This document shows, piece by piece, positions 59,242 to 63,304 of a stretch of DNA of 64,000 bases. Position numbers and translations under genes: made by a program. The stretch is from an uncultured Acidobacteriota bacterium (GTDB lineage: Bacteria > Acidobacteriota > Terriglobia > UBA7540). How positions within the stretch are numbered: position 1 is the stretch's first letter; each line of letters begins with the position of its first letter. The stretch spans positions 480,001 to 544,000 of the forward strand of contig CAWDSK010000006.1 of the NCBI GenBank assembly GCA_963804995.1, read 5' to 3'. Below the pieces are notes generated by a model. That model saw nothing but the letters and a program-made list of their open reading frames with translations. It was not told the DNA's origin and made no database searches.

Positions 59242-60558
59242 ATGGATAACGATACTCTGAATATTTTGGACAAGCGGACGAACACGACTTATGAAGTGCC
59301 GTTTCACAAGGGCACCATACGCGCCATGGATTTGCGGAAGATTAAAACCGGGCCCGAGGATTTCGGCCTGATGACTTACGACCCGGCGTTCATGAACACG
59401 GCTTCGTGTCACAGCGCCATTACTTTCATCGACGGCGACAAAGGCATTCTGCGCTACCGCGGGTATCCCATCGAGCAACTCGCGGAGAAGTGTACGTTCC
59501 TTGAGGTCGCATATCTGCTTCTCGCTGGTGAGTTGCCTACGTCCTCCCAATTAAAGGACTGGGTCAACAATGTCACTCACCACACCATGTTGCACGAGAC
59601 GACCAAGAAGTTTCTGGAGGGTTTCCGTTACAACGCCCACCCCATGGGAATGTTCATCAGCACTGTCGCGGCGCTCTCCACGGTTTATCCGGAAGCCCGG
59701 GATGTGCATGACGCCGCCACGCGGCAACTCCAGATTTTTCGCCTGATCGGCAAAGTTCCCACCATCGCCGCTTACACGTACCGCCACGGCCTGGGCTTCC
59801 CCTACGTCTATCCCGACAACGACCTGAGCTATGCCGAAAACTTCATGAACATGTTGTGGAGGATGGCGGAGCCCAAGTACGTGGCCAATCCCGCCCTGGC
59901 GCGCGCGCTCGACATCCTCTTCATCCTGCACGCCGACCACGAGCAGAATTGCAGCGCCAACGTGATGCGTTCGGTGGGCAGTTCCCAGGCCGACCCGTTT
60001 GTGTCGACGGCTGCGGCGGCGGCAGCGCTCTCCGGCCCCTTGCACGGCGGCGCCAATGAAGAAGTGCTGAAAATGCTTGACGAGATCGGATCGAAGGACA
60101 AGGTGCCGGCTTACATTGAAAGCATCAAAGCGGGCAAGGGAAAGTTGATGGGCTTCGGCCACCGCGTCTACAAGAACTACGATCCCCGCGCGCGCATCAT
60201 CAAGCAGGCCGCCGAAGAAGTCTTCGAGGTCACCGGCAAGAATCCCAAGCTCGAAATCGCCCTGGAACTGGAACGCATCGCGCTGCAAGACGATTACTTC
60301 GTCAAGCGCAAGCTCTATCCCAACGTGGATTTCTACTCCGGCATCATCTACCAGGCCATGGGATTCCAGCCGGAAATGTTTACGGTGCTGTTTGCCATTC
60401 CGCGTACGGCCGGATGGCTGGCGCAATGGCAGGAAATGATCCAGGACCCCGAACAGAAAATTGCCCGCCCACGCCAGATTTACACCGGCTACGACGAGCG
60501 GAATGTTGTTCCCATGGAGAAGCGCGGGGAGGCGAAGGAAGCAGGCAGTGGGCGGTAA
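59242..60558 (+). CDS. gltA: Citrate synthase
   Basis: LHADHEQN, GPLHGGAN, GFGHRVY, YPNVDFYSG. Confidence 0.96.
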   Translation: MDNDTLNILDKRTNTTYEVPFHKGTIRAMDLRKIKTGPEDFGLMTYDPAFMNTASCHSAITFIDGDKGILRYRGYPIEQLAEKCTFLEVAYLLLAGELPTSSQLKDWVNNVTHHTMLHETTKKFLEGFRYNAHPMGMFISTVAALSTVYPEARDVHDAATRQLQIFRLIGKVPTIAAYTYRHGLGFPYVYPDNDLSYAENFMNMLWRMAEPKYVANPALARALDILFILHADHEQNCSANVMRSVGSSQADPFVSTAAAAAALSGPLHGGANEEVLKMLDEIGSKDKVPAYIESIKAGKGKLMGFGHRVYKNYDPRARIIKQAAEEVFEVTGKNPKLEIALELERIALQDDYFVKRKLYPNVDFYSGIIYQAMGFQPEMFTVLFAIPRTAGWLAQWQEMIQDPEQKIARPRQIYTGYDERNVVPMEKRGEAKEAGSGR

Positions 60559-60725
60559 GCAGAAAGCAGAAGGCAGAAAGCAGAAGGCGGTAGGCAGCGA
60601 GCGGCGTGTGCGAGTCCCGACGCCATCGGGATGGGCGGCAGGCAGTGATTGTAGCGCGGACCCCCGTCGTTGGGGTCCGCGGCTCTTCCGTTGACGCCTT
60701 CGATCATGCGGCAACAGGAGAGTTG

Positions 60726-61001
60726 GTAGCCACGGTCAGCGTTTTTCTGACCGTGGGTTCTTCCCTTGATGACGAGGGCATAGCACGCAGGGACAGTTCA
60801 ACCCCGAGCGGAAGCGGCGGGTGAGGCGGGGGTAGCCACGGTTAACGATTTTCTGACCGTGGGTTCTTCTGGTGGTGGTCGGGTTACAGCAAACTTACTT
60901 TGGACAGGGCAACGGTAGCCGCGTGTTCCATCCAGATTGACGACCTGCCGCTGGAGCATCGGGCATGAGAAAAGCCCACGGTCAGAAAAACGCTGACCGT
61001 G
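60726..61001. repeat. GTAG-REP (GTAGCCACGGTCAG..CTGACCGTGGG) plus a REPIN-like doublet, interrupted at 61001 by the IS
   Basis: Copies at 60726, 60832, 60972 (inverted), 63806 and 63953. Confidence 0.85.
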
Positions 61002-61078
61002 ATGTTATGAAACGGCGATGCCTCCTCGGGTCCAGGTAGACTGGACCTGGGAAAGAAATTCAACGAGGAGGCAAGACG

Positions 61079-62119
61079 ATGATACCGGTTGCGTCGGACG
61101 TTCACAAGGGACGTTGTTGGATGGCGATGATTCCGCCCGGGGAAGACGTAAAAATGCTGGAGCCGATCGAGTGCACGCGGGAAGCGTGGCGGCAGCGCTT
61201 GGCGGAGCTGCCGCCGGATGCGGAGATCGCTCTGGAAGTTTCCACCAGCGGTTATTTTGTGATGAGTGTGCTGGAAGAGGCGGGGTGGCGGGATCGGGCG
61301 CACTGGGTGCACACGGCGGGGATCGACAGCTTGCGCAAGCAGAAGTCGGACCGGCTGGACACTCGGCGCTTGGTGAAGAAACTGGCGGTGCACGACGTGG
61401 AGCCGCTACCGGAGGCTTGGTTTCCGCCCCCTTCCATCCGGGAATTACGCCTGCTGGCGCGGCAGCGGTGCGGCCTGGCGCGGCTGCGGGCCCAGACGAA
61501 GAACCGCGTCAATAGCCTGCTGGAGATGCACGGGCTGCGACCGCAGCGGTGCGTCTTCACCGCCAAGGGGCGAGCCTGGATCCAGCAGCAAGCGCTCTCG
61601 TCGGCGGCGCAGTTGTGTTTCGAGCGGATGTTTCGCCTGTACGATTTTCTCAGCGCCGAGCGCGAAACCAGCGAGGCGGAACTGCTGGCGGCCGCCGCGG
61701 CTTTCCCCCAGGTGGCGCTCCTGCAGACCATCCCCGGCCTCGGGCACATGCTGGCGGCGGTCATCTGGAGCGAGATCGGAGACCTGGCGCGTTTCGACTC
61801 CGCCGACGCGCTGTTGAACTATACCGGCTTGGTGCCCAGTTCCTACGATAGTGGCGAGGTTTCGATTCATGGTCCGATCACCCGCCAAGGTCCGGTCTGG
61901 TTGCGCTGGGCCTTGATCACCGCCGCCAACGCCCTGACGCGCAGCAAGAGCCCGCTCGGCCAGCGTTACTGGCACCTGCGGCGCTGCCACAAGCACCCCA
62001 ATGTGGCCAAGACGGCGGTGGCGGGTTCGGTCGCCCGCTGCGTTTACGGAGTTTTGAAACACGGAGCACCTTTCCAGGCCGAACGTTGGGGCCGGAGAGC
62101 CGGCAAGCTGGGGCAGTAA
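61079..62119 (+). CDS. IS110-family DEDD recombinase/transposase
   Basis: SDVHK, ALEVST, KSDRLD; TIPGLG; GLVPSSYDSG. Confidence 0.93.
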   Translation: MIPVASDVHKGRCWMAMIPPGEDVKMLEPIECTREAWRQRLAELPPDAEIALEVSTSGYFVMSVLEEAGWRDRAHWVHTAGIDSLRKQKSDRLDTRRLVKKLAVHDVEPLPEAWFPPPSIRELRLLARQRCGLARLRAQTKNRVNSLLEMHGLRPQRCVFTAKGRAWIQQQALSSAAQLCFERMFRLYDFLSAERETSEAELLAAAAAFPQVALLQTIPGLGHMLAAVIWSEIGDLARFDSADALLNYTGLVPSSYDSGEVSIHGPITRQGPVWLRWALITAANALTRSKSPLGQRYWHLRRCHKHPNVAKTAVAGSVARCVYGVLKHGAPFQAERWGRRAGKLGQ

Positions 62120-62275
62120 GCCTGAGGTAGCCATGGGGAAACCAAACCCGAACCGTGATGAGGAACTGCCCCTCGAACAACAGACTGAGGCCTGCGGGAG
62201 ACCCCCGCAGTGATCCTGTAGAGATGACTGGAATCGGCGCATCCGCCGGCGACATCGTGGCAAGCGACAAGCGCC
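62120..62275 (+). ncRNA. Putative bridge/seek RNA of the IS1111 element (ends approximate)
   Basis: Segments matching the target and the donor junction, each pair separated by a hairpin. Confidence 0.7.
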
Positions 62276-62734
62276 CACGTCCTGGGCTCCGAGTTTCAGA
62301 AAGGGCCGAGCGAGAATTCTTCTCCTCGGCCGCGGTCGGGGGTGCGTGGCCTGGGGATTTCTCTTGGGCCACCGCACCACCGGCAGGCCAGGGTGAGAAC
62401 CTGGCCCTACCCCAGGGAGGTGTTTTAACTTAGCCGTGCAAGTTTCGGAGTGGCGAACTCGGCGAGGATCGTAATCGGCCGGGCGTTTTCTCAGGCATGG
62501 GGAAGCTATCGTAACCACCAGGAGGAGGAGCGATCATCCCATCGCCCCCCTGCTCGTCGTTACGATGAGCCTCCCACCGGCTATTCCTCGGCGGGTTGCT
62601 CGCCAGCAGAGCCCGCTTCCGCTTCGCCGGCTGACTGCCATTCTGAAACTAGGTGCAGACTTCTGTCAATCGGCACCTAAAATCCGCTTGACACGGCATC
62701 GCGGTTTCAGAGATGGCTACCCGCTGACGACGCA

Positions 62735-63304
62735 ATGTGGTTTGATGACCGGATCAAGCAATTTCAAAACGTTGCAGCGAAGTACGTGGATACCCCAAAC
62801 GCCCACACAAAGTGGTTAACCAACCAAATATCCGCGTGGCTCTTGCGACCCTGGACCGAAATACTCCGTCAGGGTGGGACTCAGTCATTTTTGACGGAGC
62901 GCCCTGGATTTGTGACTGACTTTATCAGAGGAATAGGATGGAAGAAGCCCTGGCGCTCGGTCGTACCGTTCTGTATTTCCGCTCTCCTGCTTCTCCTGTC
63001 GGTCGCGCTTGTCATTGGCTGCTATCTATTCTTCACGCCAACGGCAGCTTACGGCGCGGCTGGTATCAGCGGGCTTCTTTACGCGCGTCGGTACGTTCAG
63101 GCCCGCGATTTCAGGAAAGAGCGCGCGCGAGTCACCCGTTTGTGGCGCAAGGTTTCCGAGTTGCACAATGAGGTCGAAAACGGCAAGTACAACGCTGGCG
63201 AAGTCATCAGACGTTTCAGAGAAGTTGAAGTTGATGACTTGCGCCTCCCATCAATTTTCGTGAGCGTCATTGCGTTGTCGGAAGTGCACCCGCCAAGCGA
63301 ATAG
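62735..63304 (+). CDS. Hypothetical 2-TM protein, possibly 5'-incomplete
   Basis: 189-aa ORF with a hydrophobic core and no clear RBS. Confidence 0.55.
   Translation: MWFDDRIKQFQNVAAKYVDTPNAHTKWLTNQISAWLLRPWTEILRQGGTQSFLTERPGFVTDFIRGIGWKKPWRSVVPFCISALLLLLSVALVIGCYLFFTPTAAYGAAGISGLLYARRYVQARDFRKERARVTRLWRKVSELHNEVENGKYNAGEVIRRFREVEVDDLRLPSIFVSVIALSEVHPPSE

What the first reader, a model, noticed from the sequence alone, without database searches (positions are those of the whole stretch)
61002..62715. REP-targeting IS1111 element with a readable bridge/seek RNA
Seen: excising 61002-62715 restores the REP arm GACCG-TG-GCTACC, and the circular junction would read CAGAGA-TG-ATGTTA. Just after the recombinase stop lie GGTAGCCA (62126-62133, reverse complement of core plus right target) and ACCGTG (62152-62157, left target plus core), separated by a short stem. 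Then come AGAGATGA (62220-62227, identical to the donor junction) and GACATCG (62251-62257, pairing with TGATGTT using two G-U pairs), flanking the hairpin CGGCG-CATC-CGCCG. Known: IS110/IS1111 recombinases use bispecific guide RNAs. Inference: this is a complete, possibly new RNA-guided recombinase with a TG core whose natural target is a REP.
Basis: partly seen in the sequence, partly recalled or inferred. Interest (0 to 1): 0.85.

Follow-up and report, generated by a model that had tools for sequence, protein, structure and literature searches.

The report
REP-targeting IS1111 element with guide RNA
This is an intact jumping gene of a known RNA-guided type (IS1111/IS110) that always lands in one spot of a small repeated hairpin, and its relatives show in nature how changing a few RNA letters redirects it to new sites.

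Summary
Window 61002-62715 is a 1714-bp IS1111-type insertion sequence. The genome has 4 copies, each splitting a REP hairpin at ACCG-TG-GCTACC, and 87 unoccupied copies of that 12-mer.

Just after the transposase stop lies a folded RNA module (62110-62172). Its two loop segments, 62126-62133 and 62152-62157, match the two strands of the target. In about 50 relatives from soil and peat Acidobacteriota these segments change together with the flanks, giving at least 5 right-target classes. The stems show compensatory changes.

The third segment (62220-62227) equals the right end plus the core. It is invariant in 41 of 41 close relatives and changes with the right end in distant groups, which supports a donor guide.

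A match of that quality arises in 28% of shuffles, and close relatives with the same left end lack it. A weakly supported alternative lies at 62176-62182.

This is a new member of a known kind (seekRNA/bridge-RNA elements; REP targeting is known for ISPa11, IS621 and ISPpu9), not a new system.

One thing is unexplained: a strongly conserved 3' module (62479-62660) that also occurs without the transposase.

The parts
60975..61001 (.). Left part of the interrupted REP hairpin. It ends in the left target ACCG plus one copy of the core TG (61000-61001).
61002..62715 (+). The whole IS (1714 bp). The genome holds 4 copies; 3 are identical and 1 has a single base change.
61002..61008 (+). 7-nt left-end extension that precedes the subterminal inverted repeat.
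61009..61022 (+). Left subterminal inverted repeat (sTIR).
   Evidence: arms 61008-61022 and 62695-62709, 15 nt, 93% complementary
61020..61072 (+). 5'-UTR hairpin whose two 9-nt arms pair the ribosome-binding site with an upstream anti-SD stretch. Translational control is inferred.
   Evidence: MFE fold of 61002-61095, -34.6 kcal/mol
61079..62119 (+). Transposase gene, 346 aa. [quoted passage not shown]
62110..62172 (+). Target-binding module of the guide RNA. An 8-bp stem (62110-17 with 62165-72) and a 3-bp stem (62121-23 with 62161-63) close an internal loop, which is capped by a small hairpin (62136-38 with 62147-49). The module starts inside the last codons of the transposase gene.
62126..62133 (+). 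Right-target guide. It is the reverse complement of the core plus the right flank, so it pairs with the top strand.
62152..62159 (+). Left-target guide. It is identical to the left flank plus the core, so it pairs with the bottom strand. It is followed by an invariant AT that equals the first two bases of the left end.
62176..62182 (+). Candidate left-end (right-donor) guide 'J1'. 6 of its 7 bases are complementary to the core plus the first five bases of the left end. Support is weak.
62188..62217 (+). Hairpin H1 (62192-98 with 62204-10) enclosed by a 3-bp stem (62188-90 with 62215-17).
   Evidence: helices 4 and 5
62220..62227 (+). Right-end (left-donor) guide. It is identical to the last five bases of the right end plus the core plus the first base of the left end.
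62230..62282 (+). A 3-bp stem (62230-32 with 62280-82) enclosing hairpin H2 (62235-39 with 62244-48) and a variable stretch.
   Evidence: helices 6 and 7
62251..62257 (+). It is present, but at chance level and not conserved.
62479..62660 (.). Conserved accessory 3' module. Its core block (62568-62633) is 86-100% identical in the 58 matches among the held loci, including elements whose transposases are about 58% identical to this one. Function unknown.
62640..62669 (-). Promoter-like site on the minus strand (10 of 12 matches). Both hexamers are conserved in relatives and the spacer is variable.
62688..62693 (+). Outward-facing -35 hexamer, conserved 27-28 nt from the right end. Joining the ends would place a 4-of-6 -10 hexamer 17-18 nt away, forming a junction promoter. 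This is inferred.
62695..62708 (+). Right subterminal inverted repeat.
62709..62715 (+). Right-end terminal bases, including the second copy of the core TG (62714-62715).
62716..62721 (.). Right target, the rest of the REP arm.

Best explanation
Window 61002-62715 is an intact, recently active IS1111-group insertion sequence (IS110 family). Its DEDD transposase works with a non-coding RNA made from the region just 3' of the gene.

Shown here:
- The RNA's first module (62110-62172) holds two short single-stranded guides in one internal loop. One is complementary to the top strand of core plus right target. The other is identical to left target plus core.
- Together they specify the site ACCG-TG-GCTACC in one arm of a REP hairpin.
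- Relatives that land elsewhere carry correspondingly changed guides on the same scaffold.
- A second module carries a segment equal to the right end plus core, and this segment tracks the right end across distant relatives.

Inferred from published family knowledge:
- The element excises as a circle, and the TG core is the crossover point.
- Joining the ends creates a promoter (-35 at 62688-93, -10 across the junction) that drives the transposase and the RNA.
- The RNA-protein complex pairs circle and target and recombines them without a target duplication.

How the left end is recognised is open. My best guess is the segment 62176-62182, which would mirror the layout of the target module.
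For: Family:
- Pfam PF01548 + PF02371.
- NCBIfam NF033542 'IS110 family RNA-guided transposase', 177.7 bits against a cut-off of 140.
- The C-domain aligns to the IS621 and ISCro4 transposase structures at E 9e-13 and 9e-12.
- Subterminal IR of 15 nt, 93% complementary.
- Non-coding DNA is 596 nt after the gene and 77 nt before it.

Activity:
- 4 copies, 3 identical and 1 with one SNP, all with the same flanks.

Target:
- 87 empty 12-mer sites, 76 of them with the REP arm.

Guides:
- A sister element in the same genome (4 copies, same ends) sits in a different palindromic repeat. Its two loop segments are changed to match at the aligned positions.
- Across 47 unique insertions from genomes and metagenomes, 29 of the 37 with a known right flank have 8 of 8 complementarity, and 26 of the 37 with a known left flank have 6 of 6 identity. 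There are at least 5 right-target classes: GCTACC, CGCCAGC, CGCTACG, CGCTACC, CGCAATC.
- One element (L034) has the A-type scaffold with B-type guides.

Structure:
- On 41 sequences, 92.2% of cells are paired against 78.3% in shuffles (0 of 500 shuffles reach this).
- 22 of 32 pairs change on both sides.
- Slid controls give 35-55%.

Donor guide:
- 62220-62227 is invariant in 41 of 41 sequences.
- Distant groups with other right ends carry the matching internal copy. With this clade's AGAGATG, that makes 8 variants in all.

Guide order:
- The top-strand match lies 5' of the bottom-strand match, as published for IS1111 seekRNAs (PMC11187229, Results read).

Transcription:
- Contigs from two metatranscriptome runs of two studies (about 90% identical) cover 62051-62707 and 62048-62619 at higher depth than the transposase body. 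This is a weak hint only.
Against: - No RNA ends, circle junction or transposition event was observed. The reads laid were contigs, and no joints were found.
- 8 of 37 right flanks and 11 of 37 left flanks are imperfect. One right-flank miss (L053) is an error of my script, which took an internal site for the right end. L081 and L032(+) fit their guides poorly (2 and 5 of 8).
- The right-target guide is read in two registers that differ by one base between classes. I allowed for this after seeing the data.
- No clean left-end guide exists. The best candidate has a central mismatch in this element, and its covariation in distant groups is weak (the element's own dinucleotide ranks first in 5 of 18).
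- The published finding that a short seekRNA (target module only) suffices for ISEc11 (PMC11187229) means the donor module may be dispensable.
Confidence: 0.9

Rival explanations
1. One reading: four guides, with 62251-62257 (GACATCG) pairing to the core plus the left end through five Watson-Crick and two G-U pairs.
For: - The segment exists, is contiguous and covers the core.
- In a sub-group of close relatives (L032 minus strand, L034, L051, L052, L053, L057) the variants GACATCA and AACATCG keep or improve the pairing.
- In this element it scores as high as any other candidate.
Against: - A match of this quality occurs in 1415 of 5000 shuffles.
- Relatives with an identical left end and intact elements have unrelated letters at this position: L058 (94% aa), L055 (92% aa), L017, L020 and all B-type elements.
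- In 18 diverse elements, the window after the right-end guide reaches a score of 6 or more only once, in this element, and ranks the element's own left end first in 1 of 18.
- Part of the segment may instead be the 5' strand of a small variable hairpin seen in relatives. I read this from the alignment and did not test it.
Confidence: 0.12
2. The left end is read by the stretch 62176-62182, between the target module and hairpin H1. The donor module would then be laid out as left-end guide, hairpin, right-end guide, the same order as in the target module.
For: - 6 of 7 bases are complementary to the core plus the first five bases of the left end.
- The stretch has invariant positions in 41 sequences: C65, A68, A71.
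- In distant groups the corresponding 5-mer changes with positions 4-5 of the left end (my reading): GACAT with ATGTC, GCCAT with ATGGT, GTCAT with ATGAT. By my count, 9 of 11 classes pair at position 4 and 10 of 11 at position 5.
- This window scores 6 or more in 7 of 18 elements and ranks the element's own end first in 5 of 18, against 1 of 18 for the window after the guide.
Against: - Every case has at least one mismatch. In this element the mismatch is opposite the first base of the left end.
- Two registers fit the repeated AAC units.
- L092/L101 and L098 do not covary.
- The classes are few and related, and I chose the 5-mers by eye.
- The published figure with the ISPa11 donor guides (PMC11208160, Extended Data Fig. 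10c) could not be seen.
Confidence: 0.4
3. The left end is not read by RNA at all. The transposase recognises the subterminal inverted repeats, and only the target (and perhaps the right end) is RNA-guided.
For: - IS1111 elements have long subterminal repeats.
- No clean left-end guide was found here.
Against: - The right-end guide is conserved and covaries with the right end, which shows that part of the donor is read by RNA or at least co-evolves with it.
- Durrant et al. report donor-binding nucleotides in IS1111 RNAs (PMC11208160, passages).
Confidence: 0.3
4. The internal copy of the right-end letters (62220-62227) is not a guide but an alternative internal right end. It would allow modular excision, as with the A/B boxes of ISPpu9.
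For: - ISPpu9 forms several circles from repeated end boxes (PMC12288879, passages).
- The 3' part of this element (62479-62660) behaves like a separable module.
Against: - The internal copy lacks the adjoining subterminal repeat and the -35 hexamer.
- No element ending at the internal copy was seen among the loci examined.
- The internal copy sits single-stranded between covarying helices of an RNA fold.
Confidence: 0.05

Closest known systems
ISPa11 (IS1111 group, Pseudomonas aeruginosa)
   Same: - Inserts at one fixed position of a REP, in one orientation, without a direct repeat (PMC1525189, passages).
- Its transposase co-purifies with a seekRNA mapping 3' of the gene, with the top-strand match 5' of the bottom-strand match (PMC11187229).
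   Different: - Different phylum (Acidobacteriota here), a different REP, and different target and end sequences.
- I could not compare the sequences because no ISPa11 sequence was held.
- Here a whole clade with several natural target classes is documented.
ISEc11 / ISXne4 pair (IS1111 group)
   Same: Natural retargeting: related transposases (72% identity), a conserved RNA stem, and changed loop segments that match a different target (PMC11187229). The two sister elements in this genome (58-59% aa identity, same ends) do the same.
   Different: - Here at least 5 right-target classes occur on two scaffolds, and one scaffold carries the other's guides (L034).
- The targets here are palindromic repeats.
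- Nothing was tested experimentally.
IS621 bridge RNA (IS110 group)
   Same: - The protein family is the same: the C-domain aligns at E 9e-13.
- Both use a dinucleotide core.
- Both hold two guides per loop that read opposite strands.
- Both target a REP (PMC1525189).
   Different: - The RNA lies 3' of the gene, not 5'.
- The guide order is reversed.
- Long subterminal repeats are present.
- The core is TG. The IS621 core being CT is recalled, not from a call.
- The donor loop is not a simple internal loop.
ISPpu9 with MITEPpu9/ssr9 (IS110 family, P. putida)
   Same: - Targets a REP.
- Has a structured 5' UTR that hinders translation.
- Carries an extra small-RNA module downstream of the transposase gene that also occurs alone (PMC12288879). 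This is a possible analogue of the conserved 3' module here.
   Different: - No sequence relation was tested.
- The module here has no repeated end boxes that I could find.
- No complementarity to the 5' UTR was found.

Membership tests
IS1111 group of the IS110 family | DEDD (RuvC-like) transposase with Pfam PF01548 and PF02371 | tested here: met
   E 1.8e-08 and 3.1e-22, both above cut-off; NF033542, 177.7 bits against 140
IS1111 group of the IS110 family | Subterminal inverted repeats of 7-17 bp, set in from both ends | tested here: met
   arms 61008-61022 and 62695-62709, 15 nt, 93% complementary; 7 nt remain outside on each side
IS1111 group of the IS110 family | The longer non-coding region lies downstream of the transposase gene | tested here: met
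   77 nt before the gene and 596 nt after it
IS1111 group of the IS110 family | Transposase of 330-350 aa with the C-terminal GL-P----S(t)G motif (PMC11187229) | tested here: met
   346 aa; the translation reads GLVPSSYDSG; S258 is invariant in alignment A1
IS1111 group of the IS110 family | Site-specific, orientation-specific insertion with no duplication beyond the shared core | tested here: met
   4 of 4 copies; 87 empty sites
IS1111 group of the IS110 family | seekRNA with the top-strand match 5' of the bottom-strand match, both in one folded module | tested here: met
IS1111 group of the IS110 family | Circular intermediate with a junction promoter | tested here: inconclusive
   A -35 hexamer is conserved 27-28 nt from the right end in 7 of 10 elements checked. 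Joining the ends would give a 4-of-6 -10 hexamer at a spacing of 17-18. No circle was seen; no joints.
IS1111 group of the IS110 family | RNA binds the transposase and is required for movement | not testable with these tools
   needs purification and a transposition assay
Bispecific bridge RNA (as defined for IS621) | A target loop with two guides that read opposite strands around a shared core | tested here: met
Bispecific bridge RNA (as defined for IS621) | A donor loop with two guides for the two element ends | tested here: inconclusive
   The right-end guide is met. The left-end guide is not identified with confidence.
IS110 group proper (IS621-like) | Guide RNA upstream of the gene, long left end, repeats absent or only 2-3 bp | tested here: not met
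   The RNA is downstream and the subterminal repeat is 15 nt. It is therefore filed under IS1111, not IS110 proper.

The most novel reading that the evidence does not exclude
The clade gives natural evidence that IS1111 guide RNAs are truly two-sided, with a donor module laid out like the target module: left-end guide, hairpin, right-end guide. It also carries a further, strongly conserved 3' module (62479-62660). That module occurs without the transposase and in far more genomes than this transposase clade. It would be an undescribed regulatory or hitch-hiking RNA of these elements.
Probability: 0.3. Interest if true: 0.55.

Novelty: new member of a known kind. Interest (0 to 1): 0.35.

Why it matters
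The element itself is ordinary for its family. The clade around it is of some value.

- It offers a natural retargeting series: the same ends and scaffold, with at least five right-target and six left-target variants. This could inform the design rules for programmable recombinases.
- It gives independent comparative support that the right end is tracked by an internal RNA segment in IS1111 elements. That point is open because a short seekRNA sufficed in published assays.
- The REP of this genome is a landing pad for two RNA-guided mobile elements. Earlier notes of this scan, which I did not re-check, report a group II intron with about 40 copies in it.

Tried and rejected
- **Rfam.** A search of 60500-63200 at E up to 1 gave only a sub-threshold miRNA match: 23 bits against a gathering score of 90.
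- **Earlier notes of this scan.** There were no notes near the place or by sequence.
- **Orphan guide-RNA copies.** None was found in the genome. There were only the 4 + 4 element copies, one of them split by an insertion.
- **Left-end guide.** A 10-nt scan gave no score above 7 at a consistent offset, apart from isolated hits. A rank test was weak.
- **Outer stem closing the donor module.**
  - The single-sequence fold proposes 62185-91 with 62294-300.
  - RNAalifold did not predict it.
  - By eye the B-type relatives would need a different pairing. I left it open.
- **Conserved 3' block pairing with the transposase 5' UTR (an Asr9/Ssr9-like idea).** The duplex energy was no better than shuffles on either strand: 144 of 500 and 197 of 500 shuffles did as well.
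- **Strand of the block.** RNAalifold gave similar covariance terms on both strands. Only two single-sided changes exist, and both keep pairing on the plus strand only.
- **Public sequencing runs.**
  - No run holds more than 0.18 of the sampled words.
  - Laying 4 of 4 chosen RNA-library contig sets showed no joints, so no circle junction was seen.
  - Parts without cover prove nothing.
- **Folding 62173-62300 alone.** The z-score was -0.96, which is not distinctive.
- **Final coordinate check.** I re-read the coordinates with get_sequence instead.
Full report
**What is there**

Window 61002-62715 is a 1714-bp element. It has one ORF (61079-62119, 346 aa) that matches both Pfam domains of IS110-family transposases. 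It also matches the NCBIfam model 'IS110 family RNA-guided transposase' at 177.7 bits, against a cut-off of 140. Its C-terminal domain aligns to the solved IS621 and ISCro4 transposases.

The window lies in contig C6 of a 7.55-Mb, 9-contig genome. Relatives carry Acidobacteriota/Terriglobia titles.

The genome holds four copies. Three are identical and one differs by one base. All four have the left flank ...ACCG+TG and the right flank GCTACC.

The unoccupied 12-mer occurs 87 times, against about 1.5 expected for independent letters. 76 of the 87 carry the upstream hairpin arm, so the target is a true REP family.

**Family features**

The element has a 15-nt, 93% complementary inverted repeat set 7 nt in from each end. 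There are 77 nt of non-coding DNA before the gene and 596 nt after it. The protein carries the GL-P----SG motif.

These are the published marks of the IS1111 group. They are described in PMC11187229, whose Results I read in full, and in PMC11208160, of which I read passages only.

**The target module**

Directly after the stop codon, and starting inside the last codons, the sequence folds into three helices:
- an 8-bp stem (62110-17 with 62165-72);
- a 3-bp stem;
- a capped internal loop.

The loop's 5' side (62126-33) is the reverse complement of core plus right flank. Its 3' side (62152-57) is identical to left flank plus core.

The decisive test came from nature. The same genome holds a sister element:
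- It has four copies and about 66% DNA identity.
- Its transposase is 58-59% identical.
- It has the same two ends.
- It sits in a different palindromic repeat, ...GCTC+TG | CGCCAGC.

At the aligned positions its loop reads the reverse complement of G+CGCCAGC, and GCGCTCTG.

I then collected relatives: 7 loci from species genomes, 27 places in 14 of 137 genomes of the order, and 80 metagenome loci. Among 47 unique insertions:
- 29 of the 37 with a known right flank show 8 of 8 complementarity;
- 26 of the 37 with a known left flank show 6 of 6 identity.

Five right-target classes each meet their own guide: GCTACC, CGCCAGC, CGCTACG, CGCTACC, CGCAATC. Six left-target classes do likewise. L034 carries one scaffold with the other scaffold's guides.

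There are exceptions:
- L081 and L032(+) fit their guides poorly.
- L059, L061, L067, L071 and L074 have one or two mismatches.
- L029 pairs through G-T wobbles.
- The L053 miss is an artefact: my script took an internal site for the right end.
- The right guide is read in two registers one base apart, depending on the class. I allowed for this after seeing the data.

On a 41-sequence alignment my seven helices are paired in 92.2% of cells, against 78.3% in shuffles (0 of 500 shuffles reach this). 22 of 32 pairs change on both sides. Slid controls give 35-55%.

The guide order, top-strand match first, is the one published for IS1111 seekRNAs and is the reverse of the IS110 group (PMC11187229).

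**The donor side**

62220-62227 equals the last five bases of the right end plus TG plus the first base of the left end. It is invariant in 41 of 41 sequences, and chance gives it in 68 of 5000 shuffles.

All close relatives share the same ends, so I looked at distant ones with 30-50% aa identity.
- An unbiased list of repeated 8-mers shows that the word at the right end recurs 50-100 nt after the stop in many loci.
- A patterned search found such a repeat in 29 of the 38 loci that had an ORF.
- I regard L095, L122, L125 and L129 as doubtful.

Together with this clade's AGAGATG, the variants number eight: ATAGATG, ATAGGCG, ATAGAAG, ATAGAGA, ATAGGAG, ATACATG and ACAGCCG. One of these groups has AG as its core instead of TG. 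So the internal segment tracks the right end. This fits a guide for that end, as predicted for IS1111 RNAs in PMC11208160.

**The fourth segment**

62251-62257 pairs with the core plus the left end only if two G-U pairs are allowed. Such a match arises in 1415 of 5000 shuffles. A match of that kind to any of 7 windows of the left end arises in 1227 of 2000.

Relatives with the same left end and intact elements have unrelated letters there, including L058 and L055, whose transposases are 94% and 92% identical. I therefore do not accept it as shown.

A better-placed candidate is 62176-62182, between the target module and hairpin H1.
- 6 of its 7 bases are complementary.
- It has invariant positions.
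- It would give the donor module the same order as the target module.
- In distant groups the corresponding 5-mer changes with positions 4-5 of the left end. This is my reading.
- The window scores 6 or more in 7 of 18 elements and ranks the element's own end first in 5 of 18. The window after the guide does so in 1 of 18 on both counts.

This is weak. The classes are few and related, and each case has a mismatch. The published short seekRNA that sufficed for ISEc11 leaves room for protein recognition of the subterminal repeats.

**Expression**

A -35 hexamer (62688-93) is conserved 27-28 nt from the right end in 7 of 10 elements checked. Joining the ends would place a 4-of-6 -10 hexamer 17-18 nt away. 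This matches the junction promoter described for this family.

The 5' UTR folds so that the ribosome-binding site is paired.

In two metatranscriptome contig sets from different studies, contigs about 90% identical cover 62051-62707 and 62048-62619 at depths of 26 and 42, against 2-5 over the gene body. Contigs cannot show ends or strand, and DNA carry-over is not excluded. No joints were seen.

**An unexplained part**

62479-62660 is shared at 74-75% identity with the sister element. Its core block, 62568-62633, has these properties:
- It is 86-100% identical in 58 matches among the held loci, including elements whose transposases are about 58% identical to this one.
- It is missing from shorter but multi-copy relatives, for example the 1482-bp element with 3 copies in G024. 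It is therefore dispensable.
- It occurs in 51 of 137 genomes of the order. That tally includes the unpublished genomes G036, G117 and G119; without them it is 48 of 134.
- The transposase clade was found in 14 of 137 genomes at E <= 1e-40. The thresholds differ, so the two counts are not strictly comparable.
- In L134 and L138 it lies next to a right end with no transposase match in the locus, including the 1.5 kb upstream.

A promoter-like site on the minus strand (62669-62640, 10 of 12 matches) has both hexamers conserved and a variable spacer. However, the same letters can also pair with 62290-62300 on the plus strand (pair I3). The function is unknown. An accessory small-RNA module like MITEPpu9/ssr9 of ISPpu9 is the nearest precedent.

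**Verdict**

The element is a real, intact, REP-targeting IS1111 element with a readable target guide and a supported right-end guide. The fourth guide is not supported. The kind is known, so this is a new member. The natural retargeting series and the conserved 3' module give it modest added interest.

**Papers seen**

| Paper | What I read |
|---|---|
| PMC11187229 | outline and the whole Results |
| PMC11208160 | passages |
| PMC13626964 | reference-list passages only |
| PMC12288879 | passages |
| PMC1525189 | passages |

I saw no supplements or figures. Extended Data Fig. 10c of PMC11208160 may bear on the position of the left-end guide.

Noticed in passing
window 62479-62660 (core block 62568-62633): A 3' module far more conserved than the rest of the element.
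- It is 86-100% identical in 58 matches among the held loci, including elements with about 58% aa identity in the transposase.
- It is absent from shorter multi-copy relatives.
- It is present in 51 of 137 genomes of the order. That count includes the unpublished G036, G117 and G119.
- In L134 and L138 it sits by a right end with no transposase match in the locus.
Function unknown.
   Followed up: partly
window 62640-62669, minus strand: A promoter-like site (10 of 12 matches) pointing into the conserved block. Both hexamers are conserved in 16 aligned relatives, with a variable spacer. The same letters can alternatively pair with 62290-62300 on the plus strand.
   Followed up: partly
genome C6:1008220-1009956, C3:1379539-1382378, C3:1484245-1485980, C6:235586-237321: A sister IS with the same ends but retargeted to a second palindromic repeat, ...GCTC+TG|CGCCAGC. 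The empty 13-mer occurs 22 times against 0.6 expected. One copy has a frameshift in the transposase gene.
   Followed up: yes
genome C3:1380797-1381898: One sister-IS copy is split inside its guide-RNA region by a 1.1-kb element with terminal inverted repeats and a TA duplication. This looks IS630/Tc1-like, a name I recall rather than one from a search.
   Followed up: partly
genome C3 near 973248, minus strand: A solitary left end of a third relative (about 70-100 bp, no transposase behind it) at the same position of a REP variant.
   Followed up: partly
window 61020-61072: 5'-UTR hairpin that pairs the ribosome-binding site of the transposase gene with an upstream 9-nt stretch. The arms are conserved in relatives.
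   Followed up: partly
L142 (G035:C15), 1-1520: In another genome a group II intron-type reverse transcriptase ORF, followed by what looks like domains V-VI, ends directly before the hairpin that precedes the conserved block. An intron appears to have landed in a copy of the module.
   Followed up: no
window 60727-60759 and 60830-60862: Two further REP copies in the opposite orientation just upstream of the insertion, so the element sits in a small REP cluster.
   Followed up: no
L081; L032/L041 plus-strand element: Two relatives whose flanks fit their guides poorly (2 and 5 of 8). The second is nested against another element. These could be off-target insertions or later rearrangements.
   Followed up: no
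window 62048-62707: Metatranscriptome contigs from two studies begin at 62048/62051 and run through the guide-RNA region at higher depth than the gene body. This hints at a transcript start about 60 nt before the stop codon.
   Followed up: partly
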